A stretch of 62,904 nt of DNA, counting the filler, from Reclinomonas americana ATCC 50394 (lineage: Eukaryota), in the NCBI GenBank assembly GCA_048213135.1. It is 45 parts of 45 records of this genome, joined end to end, with 100 filler letters (N's around TTAATTAATTAA, not from the genome) between each part and the next. Parts side by side here need not be neighbours in the genome. Positions count along the whole stretch, not along the records: positions 16,904 to 18,208 come from AFZH01025874.1; 44 more parts are not named here. The stretch is one strand, 5' to 3'. Below, piece by piece: positions 16,904-18,208 of this stretch. The translations under genes and the position numbers were made by a program. Position 1 is the first letter of the stretch. Every line of letters begins with the position of its first letter. The notes under the pieces are model-generated. The model worked only from the letters and a program-made list of their open reading frames with translations, made no database searches and had not been told where the DNA came from.

Positions 16904-18208
16904 CTCGGCCCCGAGGTCTGGATCACTGCGCCAGTCCAGTACCTCCGGCTCGACCGTGGGATACGGCAACAGCGCTCTTGGGTAGCCGAATGTCTCTCCC
17001 ACCGTGACCGGGCCGTTCGCTGACACTTCACCGTCGCCTTCCGCCTGGACGAGCTCTCGCAATTCGTCCACTGACCATACACCCTCATCGTCTCGAACGT
17101 CATCTCCAACCATGTAGTCGGCGTCATCTTGCCACTGGTCGGCCTCACTGACCTCGTAGTCTTCACCCGATGGACACCACCACTCGTCCTTCGGTACCTC
17201 TGCCACCGAGAAACTCGCATTCTCACAGTGGCCACTCTCCACGTCACCCACACTGGACTCCCTCGTCCAGTCGACGCCTGACACGCAGCCCACGCCGTCG
17301 ACCCCTTCACTGCACTCGCCTCCCACAGCCACTGCCCCGTCAACGGTGTCGTAATGCATCTCGTCGACGGTGCCGACTGGCTCCATCATGTCACCTCCCT
17401 GCCACTCAACTCCATTCTCGACATCCGTCTCCCACTCGCCAACGGTGTCGTCATATGTCTCGTCAACGGTGTCGATCAAATCCCTCATGTCACCCCCTTG
17501 CCAATCATCACTGCACTCGACATCCGTCTCCCACACTTGGCCGCCAACCTCCATCTGAGCGGTGTCTCCATCCTCCTCGTGGCCTTGCCACCCGAGAGGG
17601 ACACCGCCTAGTCCCTACGCATCGCCGCCGCCACCACCCATGCCGCCACGATTGTGGTCCTGTTGGCGACGCTGTGGCGGCGCTCCCGGTCCACCTCGGA
17701 AGCCACCATTGCCGCGGCCACCTCGATGGCCGTTACCGCCCCCTCGAGGACGCCCCTGCCACTGCCCCTGTTGGGCGAAAGGTCGTTGGCCACCACCCCG
17801 GCCGCCACGGCCTCCTCCTCGAGCGACGTCAAACTGATCGACCTGGCGAGGCTGACCACCGTGGTAGGGCAGGCCCCCCTGGTAACCGCGACTGTCGAAG
17901 CCGCCACCGGCTCCCCGACCGTCAAAAAACGGTGGGAATGTCGCCACGTTCCCGCCGGCAAGGTCGTCTTGGTGCCCAGGGAAGGCGTGGGGACCAGTCT
18001 TCTGTGCGACGAATCGAGTCGCCCCACCGCCACCGTTACTGTACGCCTCGTATTGGCGCTGCCGCTTCATGTTCCCGGCGAGCTGCGCCTTGTGGTACTT
18101 GCTCATGTGTGTGCGGTGGTCAGCTACCAGCTTGCCCAGCGCCTGGCTCAGTGCCGTCTCTTGCCACGCCCAGAGTGCTCCAAACCAGGCACGGAAGGAG
18201 TCGGGGAG
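16904..18208 (-). mobile_element. Putative retroelement gag-like/pol-like junction (RGG-rich ORF1 end, in-frame UAG, acidic ORF2)
   Basis: Intronless frame open across the whole contig except one TAG at 17615-17617; ORF1 ends in an RGG/GGRG tail; no RT motif visible, so identity is inferred. Confidence 0.5.

What the first reader, a model, noticed from the sequence alone, without database searches (positions are those of the whole stretch)
17555..17617. Single in-frame UAG followed by a strong stem-loop: candidate programmed stop-codon readthrough
Seen: on the minus strand one frame runs through the entire 1.3-kb contig with a single stop (GAT GCG TAG GGA CTA GGC GGT GTC ... CAG ATG). Seven nt after the UAG a hairpin begins: GCGGUGUC pairs with GACACCGC (plus-strand 17600-17607 and 17559-17566), enclosing an imperfect CCUCUCG/CGAGGAGG stem and GUGGC/GCCAC. 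Established: UAG-G plus a ~8-nt spacer and 3' structure is the gammaretroviral gag-pol readthrough architecture, and 3' stem-loops stimulate alphavirus readthrough. Inference: an RGG-tailed Gag-like ORF1 is fused to ORF2 by readthrough in a protist retroelement (DIRS/Ngaro or LTR type) or an endogenous virus.
Basis: partly seen in the sequence, partly recalled or inferred. Interest (0 to 1): 0.8.

Follow-up and report, generated by a model that had tools for sequence, protein, structure and literature searches.

The report
Lone in-frame UAG before strong hairpin
A 1.3-kb fragment from an unidentified intron-rich protist has one coding frame interrupted by a single UAG followed by a strong RNA hairpin; this may be a stop-codon readthrough signal in an orphan gene or just a broken allele, and nothing marks it as a retroelement.

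Summary
The window is 45 unrelated ~1.3-kb contigs. On contig 16904-18208, one minus-strand frame runs 435 codons with one stop, TAG at 17615-17617. About 12 stops are expected per frame (P(<=1)=0.0002). Six to seven nt after the TAG lies a 20-22 bp stem-loop (17555-17611, -30 kcal/mol). It is the most stable and most composition-corrected structure on the contig and falls in the top 0.2% of all 56-nt windows. None of 7 other in-frame stops tested has anything like it.

The downstream frame looks protein-coding: 0 stops where 9 are expected (P=5e-5), with strong 3-periodicity. The TAG sits on the switch from a basic Gly/Arg-rich part (pI 11.2) to an acidic part (pI 4.05).

The retroelement reading has no support. 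There is no Gag, protease, RT or integrase signal, no Cys in ORF1, no second copy and no homologue anywhere.

Nine verified host introns are T/C-rich, unlike this stretch, so an intron is unlikely.

My odds:
- Stem-loop-assisted UAG readthrough in an orphan cellular gene: ~0.35
- Nonsense allele, pseudogene or base error: ~0.25
- Two separate cistrons: ~0.15
- Intron: ~0.08

No other copy, read set or RNA data could be found, so this stays undecided.

The parts
16904..18208 (-). The whole 1305-bp contig. One frame of 435 codons runs off both ends and holds a single stop.
   Evidence: GC is 0.638 and the sense strand is G-rich (G 0.39, T 0.16).
17618..18208 (-). Upstream ORF (ORF1), 197 codons open to the contig end. 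It is basic (pI 11.2), 25% Gly and 10% Arg with RGG/RGGG runs, and has no Cys. A possible start is the ATG at 18106-18104 (M35), which would give 163 aa.
   Evidence: Synonymous codon use is typical of the host ORFs (0.112 per codon; host chunks range -0.07 to 0.33). The start is an inference: the context before the ATG followed by AGC resembles that of the NECAP-like gene's start.
17615..17617 (-). The only in-frame stop, TAG (codon 198), followed by G.
   Evidence: It lies inside the composition change-point interval, residues 194-211.
17609..17614 (-). Spacer GGACUA between the stop and the main stem.
17555..17611 (-). Stem-loop. The main stem spans 17608-17558: 9 bp outer, then 2, 4 and 5 bp, with an apical 3-nt loop at 17586-17584. 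Two further pairs join 17611/17610 with 17555/17556. All internal loops are 3 nt or shorter.
17552..17554 (-). First ATG after the stop (codon 219), directly after the hairpin. It is the only candidate start if the downstream frame is a separate cistron.
16904..17614 (-). Downstream in-frame ORF (ORF2), 237 codons open to the contig end. It is acidic (pI 4.05) and rich in D, G, V and E (13-14% each) and in W.
   Evidence: 0 stops where 9.1 are expected (P=5e-5), with strong 3-periodicity; composition; synonymous codon use is weak (0.025), no better than non-coding frames. AlphaFold2 pLDDT 42.7.
17339..17536 (-). Two tandem 99-nt (33-codon) repeat units inside ORF2, 79% identical.
   Evidence: The differences fall at codon positions 1/2/3 as 6/8/9.

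Best explanation
The contig carries part of an orphan, intron-free nuclear gene of an undersampled, intron-rich eukaryote. Translation normally ends at UAG-G (17617-17615) and yields a small basic Gly/Arg-rich (RGG) protein. A 20-22 bp stem-loop starts 6-7 nt after the stop, at the distance where a structure meets the ribosome's mRNA entry channel. I propose it lets a fraction of ribosomes decode UAG with a near-cognate tRNA. Those ribosomes would continue in the same frame into an acidic extension of at least 237 residues, giving two isoforms of opposite charge from one mRNA.

Shown:
- the single stop in the frame;
- the coding character of both halves;
- the structure and its rarity;
- the stop's place at the module boundary.

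Inferred:
- that ribosomes read through at all;
- that the hairpin stimulates it;
- that the gene is cellular rather than from a mobile element.
For: 1. The frame has one stop in 435 codons, against 11.9 expected, P=0.0002.

2. The part after the stop is coding-like in the same frame: 0 stops where 9.1 are expected (P=5e-5), codon-position chi2 98. It is the best of six frames in every segment by a codon model trained on 13 ORFs of the window.

3. The hairpin is the most stable and the most composition-corrected structure of the contig. It is in the top 0.17% of 28048 windows and stable in contexts up to 500 nt. Nothing similar follows 7 other in-frame stops.

4. The composition change point from basic to acidic is at residues 194-211, and the stop is residue 198. 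A random nonsense hit would fall in that interval about 4% of the time.

5. The layout matches described signals. I read passages of PMC3159437:
- Type III readthrough is 'generally UAG-G' plus a 3' structure.
- Spacers are 8 nt (MuLV), 8-9 nt (alphaviruses), 7 nt (furoviruses) and 6 nt with a 16-bp stem (SEPN1).
- The stem-loop raised readthrough by up to 10-fold (abstract), ~10- to 14-fold for VEEV in the assays.

6. Weak synonymous codon bias in ORF2 (0.025) against ORF1 (0.112) fits a rarely translated extension.

7. GC3 of 0.67 matches the other coding frames of the window, which range 0.55-0.75. That points to the same genome.
Against: - No second copy, allele, read set or RNA was found, so conservation of the TAG, compensatory changes in the stem, and translation itself are all untested.
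- In an 81-nt context the fold is not exceptional: z=-1.29, and 21 of 200 shuffles fold as well.
- The G-rich upstream part holds several -27 to -28 kcal/mol folds.
- By my recall, UAG-G with G at -1 is not a leaky context on its own.
- The two 99-nt repeat copies in ORF2 differ equally at all codon positions, 6/8/9.
- ORF2's synonymous codon use is no better than that of non-coding frames. Present-day selection on ORF2 as protein is therefore not shown.
- The assembly holds contig pairs 1.2-2.6% apart. At that divergence a neutral 435-codon frame would be expected to carry 0.6-1.4 nonsense differences.
Confidence: 0.35

Rival explanations
1. One continuous gene broken by a recent nonsense change (a segregating null allele or young pseudogene) or by a base-call error in a very fragmented assembly. 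The hairpin would be a coincidence.
For: - The assembly is made of 1.3-kb contigs. It contains two pairs of near-identical contigs, 97.4% and 98.8% identical, that look like separated haplotypes.
- 156 of 3906 possible single substitutions in this frame create a stop. At 1.2-2.6% divergence a neutral frame would carry 0.6-1.4 nonsense differences.
- The protein is an orphan, low-complexity and probably disordered, so constraint may be weak.
- ORF2 shows no third-position excess between its repeats and no synonymous codon bias.
Against: - The stop sits inside the 18-residue composition change-point interval of a 435-residue frame, about 4% by chance. Truncations at module boundaries may be better tolerated, which softens this point.
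- The stop is followed at 6-7 nt by the best structure of the contig. By rank this is roughly 1% by chance (about 2-3 of 209 windows). By absolute energy it is about 0.2%.
- ORF2 has not picked up a single further stop in 237 codons.
Confidence: 0.25
2. TAG is the true end of ORF1, and ORF2 is a separate cistron starting at ATG 17554-17552. The 60-nt spacer would be an intergenic hairpin. This layout is seen in compact genomes: bacteria, or giant viruses whose transcripts end at hairpins right after the stop ('hairpin rule'). The shared frame would be a 1-in-3 coincidence.
For: - The stop is at a module boundary.
- An ATG follows directly after the hairpin.
- The two halves differ sharply in composition and in synonymous codon use.
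- Hairpin-forming palindromes just after stop codons are the polyadenylation signal of Mimiviridae, Pithovirus and Marseilleviridae. I read passages of PMC4402537, PMC5413956 and PMC8557863.
- At least one contig of the window (1-1312, amine oxidase, GC3 0.92) has a composition unlike the rest, so foreign DNA in the assembly is possible.
Against: - The hairpins of the 'hairpin rule' viruses are described as A/T-rich, and none was found in the GC-rich medusavirus (PMC8557863). This hairpin is 66% GC.
- There is no T-run after the stem, so it is not a classical intrinsic terminator.
- GC3 of 0.67 fits the host's genes, not a 64%-GC bacterium.
- No relative was found among 1.84 billion representative proteins, which are rich in bacterial and metagenomic proteins, nor in viral contigs.
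- A 60-nt gap leaves no room for a promoter in a nuclear gene (inference).
Confidence: 0.15
3. The TAG lies in a short spliceosomal intron whose length happens to be a multiple of three, so both exons appear in one frame in the DNA.
For: - The organism is intron-rich. A NECAP-like gene has 7 GT-AG introns of 64-148 nt in 1.25 kb.
- A Dus gene has at least 2 complete introns of 250 and 72 nt.
- 53 in-frame GT..AG pairs of 40-260 nt span the TAG without creating a stop. One is a 108-nt GTAGGG...TGCAG candidate at 17618-17511.
- Exon borders often coincide with module borders.
Against: - All 9 verified introns are pyrimidine-rich: T 0.24-0.42, C+T 0.53-0.79. Their donors are GTTGCG (4), GTGCG (2), GTACGC (2) and GTAATA (1).
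- All 53 candidates have T 0.11-0.19 and C+T 0.33-0.42.
- No 63-nt window of the sense strand has T above 0.25.
- The stretch after the TAG has the same composition as the rest of the frame.
- The 108-nt candidate would cut into the first unit of the coding tandem repeat.
- Only two genes supplied the intron sample.
Confidence: 0.08
4. One reading: gag-pol type readthrough inside a retroelement (LTR, DIRS/Ngaro) or an endogenous virus.
For: UAG-G plus spacer plus 3' structure is the gammaretroviral layout (PMC3159437 passages). A 1.3-kb stretch without introns stands out in an intron-rich genome. By my recall, Gly/Arg-rich boxes replace zinc knuckles in some retroviral Gag proteins (foamy viruses).
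Against: - No Pfam family in either ORF at E<=1.
- No Cys in ORF1, no CCHC and no D[TS]G anywhere in the frame.
- 237 residues after the stop show no protease or RT.
- No second copy among the 45 contigs.
- No reverse transcriptase, integrase or recombinase among 139 long ORFs of the window that were scanned.
- No relative in viral contigs, metagenome contigs or protein collections.
- Other contigs also carry intron-free ORFs of more than 400 codons.
Confidence: 0.04

Closest known systems
Gammaretroviral gag-pol readthrough signal (MuLV; 'Type III' of Beier and Grimm, as summarised in PMC3159437)
   Same: UAG followed by G. A short, mostly purine spacer (6-7 nt here, 8 nt in MuLV). A stable 3' structure. 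The downstream ORF is in the same frame.
   Different: The structure here is an extended stem-loop with loops of 3 nt or less, not a compact H-type pseudoknot. Neither ORF resembles Gag or Pol. There is no sign of a retroelement.
Extended 3' stem-loop readthrough stimulators of alphaviruses, coltivirus, furo-/pomo-/tobraviruses and Drosophila kelch (Firth et al. 2011, PMC3159437)
   Same: A simple stem of 10 bp or more starts 7-9 nt after the stop and acts without a pseudoknot. One example (kelch) is a cellular gene with a long extension.
   Different: Those cases mostly use UGA-C, and many have loops of about 100 nt. Their stems are backed by synonymous-site conservation, compensatory changes and mutagenesis. 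None of that can be tested here.
SEPN1 stem-loop next to a recoded UGA (as described in the discussion of PMC3159437)
   Same: A 6-nt spacer and a 16-bp stem with a small loop next to a recoded stop in a cellular mRNA. It stimulates readthrough in cells.
   Different: That site is UGA in a selenoprotein context. This one is UAG, and no selenoprotein features are known here.
Giant-virus 'hairpin rule' transcript ends (Mimiviridae, Pithovirus, Marseilleviridae; PMC4402537, PMC5413956)
   Same: A palindromic hairpin directly after a stop codon, in a short gap before the next same-strand ORF.
   Different: Those hairpins are A/T-rich and lie in AT-rich viral genomes with recognisable viral genes. 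This contig is GC-rich, has host-like GC3 and has no viral relatives.

Membership tests
Type III (gammaretrovirus-like) readthrough signal | UAG stop followed by G | tested here: met
   TAG G at 17617-17614 on the minus strand.
Type III (gammaretrovirus-like) readthrough signal | Spacer of about 8 nt between the stop and the structure | tested here: met
The literature range is 6-9 nt (PMC3159437 passages). The specific spacer nucleotides important in MuLV were not compared.
Type III (gammaretrovirus-like) readthrough signal | Compact H-type pseudoknot | tested here: not met
   The predicted structure is a stem-loop whose apical and internal loops are all 3 nt or less. That leaves no loop long enough for a second stem. 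No pseudoknot-capable folding program was run.
Type III (gammaretrovirus-like) readthrough signal | Upstream Gag and downstream protease/RT/integrase | tested here: not met
   No Pfam hit at E<=1. No Cys in ORF1, no CCHC and no D[TS]G. Only 237 residues of the downstream ORF are on the contig.
Stem-loop-stimulated readthrough (alphavirus / kelch type) | Stable stem of 10 bp or more starting 6-9 nt 3' of the stop | tested here: met
   20 bp in 4 helices plus 2 outer pairs, -30.2 kcal/mol, z=-4.4. It persists in contexts up to 500 nt.
Stem-loop-stimulated readthrough (alphavirus / kelch type) | In-frame downstream ORF with coding signature | tested here: met
   0 stops in 237 codons against 9.1 expected (P=5e-5), with strong 3-periodicity. 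Synonymous codon bias is absent.
Stem-loop-stimulated readthrough (alphavirus / kelch type) | Conservation of stop and stem with compensatory changes in relatives | not testable with these tools
   No relative or second copy was found. No genome is held.
Stem-loop-stimulated readthrough (alphavirus / kelch type) | Measured readthrough that depends on the stem | not testable with these tools
   This needs reporter assays or ribosome profiling. No RNA run was listed.
LTR / DIRS / Ngaro retroelement | Reverse transcriptase, RNase H, and integrase or tyrosine recombinase | tested here: not met
   None on the contig. None in the 139 of 154 ORFs of 130 aa or more in the window that were scanned. The contig may simply be too short.
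LTR / DIRS / Ngaro retroelement | Multiple dispersed copies | tested here: inconclusive
   There is no other copy in the 45 contigs. These are a tiny sample of the assembly, and the whole genome is not held.
Giant-virus hairpin-rule 3' end | Hairpin directly after the stop in a short intergenic gap | tested here: met
   The hairpin fills the 60 nt between the TAG and the next ATG.
Giant-virus hairpin-rule 3' end | A/T-rich hairpin in a viral genome context | tested here: not met
   The hairpin window is 66% GC. There are no viral relatives. GC3 is host-like.

The most novel reading that the evidence does not exclude
A cellular orphan gene of a barely sampled protist lineage uses a virus-like signal (UAG-G, 6-7 nt spacer, 20-bp stem-loop) to append an acidic tail of at least 237 residues (pI 4) to a small basic RGG protein (pI 11). 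One mRNA would then give two isoforms of opposite charge, with the ratio set by the hairpin. A still more exotic variant that the sequence does not exclude is a ribosome hop from Ala-GCG (codon 197) over the 57-nt hairpin-containing gap to Ala-GCU (codon 217). I give that variant about 1%.
Probability: 0.33. Interest if true: 0.55.

Novelty: new member of a known kind. Interest (0 to 1): 0.4.

Why it matters
Structure-stimulated readthrough is well documented in viruses. Among cellular genes it is known for only a few, mostly in insects and mammals. A clear case in a deep-branching, unsampled protist would show that the UAG-G plus stem-loop solution is used by host genes far outside those groups. 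It would also give a compact element of about 70 nt to test in reporters. The basic-to-acidic switch at the stop suggests a simple functional logic: an RGG RNA-binding module with or without a self-neutralising acidic tail. If the stop instead proves to be a nonsense allele, the case is a useful caution. In GC-rich, highly heterozygous draft assemblies, a stop next to a hairpin arises by chance at roughly the 1% level.

Tried and rejected
Homology and family searches, all blank:
- Pfam on both ORFs at E<=1.
- Word-indexed search of 5.8 billion protein clusters for each ORF, near lengths only.
- Exhaustive phmmer of the 435-residue read-through product (X at the stop) against 1.84 billion representatives: 0 hits at E<=0.001.
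- JGI metagenome contigs: 57 pattern matches, none confirmed.
- IMG/VR viral contigs: no pattern match.
- PDB sequences: best E 0.09, meaningless.
- ESM Atlas: nothing usable. Recognition scores were 846 and 1333, below 2300.
- Rfam and tRNA scans of the whole window: 0 hits.

Other attempts that led nowhere:
- No whole genome is held.
- Sequencing runs: no RNA holder was listed. One DNA run (X1, labelled a rhizosphere metagenome) holds a single 151-bp contig over 17074-17224 with 2 differences. It does not cover the TAG, so it says nothing about the stop or about habitat.
- AlphaFold2 of ORF2 without an alignment gave pLDDT 42.7, too poor for a fold search.
- Aligning the stretch after the TAG to the 99-nt repeat units gave no convincing third unit.
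- RSCU correlation with host genes did not separate frames well. Frame 1 scored 0.63 against 0.69 for the true frame.

Ideas considered and set aside:
- TAG reassignment. Many frames of 430 or more codons are fully open under the standard code, and the NECAP-like and amine oxidase ORFs end in TGA. No in-frame TAG was seen in any Pfam-matched stretch.
- A trypanosomatid origin, my first guess from the CT/GT repeats. The verified introns rule it out.
- Naming the organism. The Dus fragment's best hits are only 66-68% identical, to assorted fungi. No close relative is in the collection, and I did not name the organism.
- Whether GC-rich giant viruses (pandoravirus, mollivirus) follow the hairpin rule. 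Two literature searches returned nothing that says so. I read only listings and the passages cited.
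Full report
**What the window is.** The 62.9-kb window is not one locus. It is 45 contigs of 1290-1314 bp, sorted by size and joined by N/TTAATTAATTAA linkers. The finding lies on contig 16904-18208 (1305 bp, GC 0.638). No whole genome is held for it.

**The source organism.** Other contigs carry eukaryotic genes:
- a kinesin motor, EGF repeats, an amine oxidase, a Dus tRNA-dihydrouridine synthase, and a NECAP-like DUF1681 protein.

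The source is intron-rich:
- I could assemble the NECAP-like gene from 8 exons into a 669-nt stop-free CDS. It has 7 GT-AG introns of 64-148 nt. I placed the exon borders by eye, by frame continuity and by the partial Pfam match. My comparison with animal NECAP is from recall.
- tblastn with four Dus homologues defined 2 complete introns of 250 and 72 nt in the Dus gene.
- The Dus fragment is only 66-68% identical to its best hits, which are assorted fungi. The organism has no close sequenced relative in that collection, and I do not name it.

Two contig pairs are 97.4% and 98.8% identical over their full length. They look like separated haplotypes or very recent duplicates.

**The observation.**
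- Minus frame 0 has one stop (TAG, 17617-17615) in 435 codons. The other five frames have 2 to 23.
- Simulated sequences with the contig's own first-order composition average 11.9 stops per frame. P(<=1) is 0.0002.
- The 237 codons after the stop should hold 9.1 stops and hold none (P=5e-5). They have a very strong codon-position signal (chi2 98; G is 59% of first positions).
- The 197 codons before the stop are also periodic (chi2 46), but an open frame there is less surprising (P=0.04).
- A codon model trained on 13 other ORFs of the window ranks this frame first of six in each of five segments, by small margins.

Both halves are, or very recently were, protein-coding in one frame.

**The hairpin.**
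- RNAfold pairs 17608-17600 with 17566-17558 (9 bp). It then adds 2, 4 and 5 bp around a 3-nt loop, plus two outer pairs reaching 17611 and 17555.
- As a 56-nt piece it has -30.2 kcal/mol and z=-4.4. None of 200 dinucleotide shuffles folds as well.
- Against this, in an 81-nt piece z is only -1.29. The Gly-codon-rich region just upstream also folds to -27 or -28 kcal/mol.
- It is still the lowest-energy window of 626 on the contig. Only 0.17% of 28048 windows of the whole window, and 0.16% of 11047 GC-matched ones, are as stable.
- It has the best composition-corrected score of 209 sense-strand windows: z=-4.5, with the next independent window at -2.9.
- It keeps pair probabilities of 0.8-1.0 (outer stem) and 0.92-0.95 (apical stem) in 150-500-nt contexts.
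- As a control I folded the sequence after 7 other in-frame stops in mostly open frames of the window. They reach -4 to -20 kcal/mol and z no better than -2.0.

I put the chance that the one stop of this frame is followed at 3-12 nt by the contig's best structure at roughly 0.2-1.5%.

**What the two halves are.**
- Neither half has any detectable relative: Pfam, two cluster searches, exhaustive phmmer against 1.84 billion representatives, metagenome and viral contigs, PDB and the Atlas.
- ORF1 is 25% Gly, 10% Arg and 10% Gln, with pI 11.2, RGG runs and no Cys. ORF2 is rich in D, G, V and E (13-14% each), with pI 4.05.
- ORF2 contains two 33-codon tandem repeats. AlphaFold2 gives it pLDDT 42.7.
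- A two-segment likelihood scan places the composition switch at residues 194-211. The stop is residue 198.
- ORF1's synonymous codon choice is typical of the host ORFs (0.112 per codon). ORF2's (0.025) is at the low end and no better than non-coding frames.
- The two repeat copies differ at codon positions 1/2/3 in 6/8/9 places. There is thus no direct sign of purifying selection on ORF2.

**Weighing the explanations: intron.**
- All 9 verified introns are T/C-rich (T 0.24-0.42, C+T 0.53-0.79), with donors GTTGCG, GTGCG, GTACGC or GTAATA.
- All 53 in-frame GT..AG candidates that would remove the TAG have T 0.11-0.19.
- No 63-nt stretch of the sense strand has T above 0.25.
- I rate an intron at about 0.08. 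The intron sample comes from only two genes.

**Weighing the explanations: nonsense allele or base error.**
- This is plausible in principle. At the 1.2-2.6% divergence of the contig pairs, a neutral 435-codon frame would carry 0.6-1.4 nonsense differences.
- A random hit would have to land both in the 18-residue module boundary and just before the best hairpin.
- I rate this at about 0.25.

**Weighing the explanations: two separate cistrons.**
- Two cistrons with an intergenic hairpin fit the module boundary and the ATG just after the stem.
- The layout resembles the giant-virus 'hairpin rule' (passages of PMC4402537, PMC5413956 and PMC8557863).
- Those hairpins are A/T-rich. The contig's GC3 of 0.67 matches the host's genes. 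No viral or bacterial relative exists.
- I rate this at about 0.15.

**Weighing the explanations: stem-loop-assisted readthrough.**
- UAG-G, the 6-7 nt spacer and the stem-loop match described signals. Passages of PMC3159437 give Type III as UAG-G plus structure, with spacers of 6-9 nt. They report up to 10-fold (~10- to 14-fold for VEEV) stimulation by a plain stem-loop, including cellular examples.
- The weak codon bias of ORF2 suits a rarely translated extension.
- I make this the leading reading at about 0.35. It remains unproven.

**The retroelement claim.**
- There is no Gag, protease, RT, RNase H, integrase or recombinase signal on the contig.
- There is none in the 139 of 154 long ORFs of the window that I scanned (123, 14, 2). 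Fifteen overlapping alternative frames were left out.
- There is no second copy among the 45 contigs.
- The structure is not a pseudoknot.
- I rate this at about 0.04.

**Verdict.** The signal is real, statistically unusual and correctly described. Its architecture is that of a known class of recoding signal, in what looks like an orphan cellular gene rather than a mobile element. Whether ribosomes actually read through cannot be decided from this 1.3-kb fragment. Resequencing the TAG, extending the contig and obtaining any RNA or ribosome data would settle it.

Noticed in passing
window 1-62904: The window is a chain of 45 unrelated contigs of 1290-1314 bp in descending size order, joined by N runs around TTAATTAATTAA. 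Many contigs end in (CT)n, (GA)n or (GT)n microsatellites, which is probably where the assembly broke.
   Followed up: yes
32334-33633 vs 33734-35031; 47692-48985 vs 49086-50379: Two pairs of contigs are 97.4% and 98.8% identical over their full length. They are likely separated haplotypes or very recent duplicates. The second pair keeps a 431-codon frame open in both copies, with 8 synonymous and 8 non-synonymous codon differences.
   Followed up: partly
29535-30835 (+): A complete NECAP-like (DUF1681) gene: 8 exons, 222 aa, and 7 GT-AG introns of 64-148 nt. The donor consensus is unusual (GTTGCG in four, GTGCG in two, GTACGC in one). The introns are T/C-rich and full of GT and CT repeats.
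   Followed up: yes
1-1312 (-), ORF 34-1311: A flavin amine oxidase ORF fills the contig. Its GC is 0.69 and GC3 0.92, far above the 0.55-0.75 of the other coding frames, and it ends in a double TGA. It may be foreign (bacterial) DNA in the assembly, or a gene with very biased codon use.
   Followed up: no
24242-25184: A tandem repeat of 168/334-bp units (2.8-5.6 copies, 88-89% matches) on the most AT-rich contig of the window (GC 0.44). It looks like a satellite.
   Followed up: no
26731-28032 (-): A 433-codon fully open frame made of EGF_2 / teneurin-type EGF repeats. The DNA itself is a 93-99 / 288-bp tandem array.
   Followed up: no
44902-46197 (-): Two long ORFs in different frames overlap by about 320 nt (45384-46196 and 44903-45703). 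The second matches TMEM260-like weakly. This may be a frameshift error, an intron or a real overlap.
   Followed up: no
14093-15398 (+): A kinesin motor ORF lacks the first ~30 profile positions and has no ATG upstream. It is preceded by a GT-repeat tract ending in CAG, which suggests an upstream intron. The motor is interrupted by an in-frame S/A/P-rich insertion of about 90 residues.
   Followed up: no
13569-13926: An 82-bp purine-rich tandem repeat (4.3 copies, 83% matches) lies inside a 281-codon open frame with no Pfam match.
   Followed up: no
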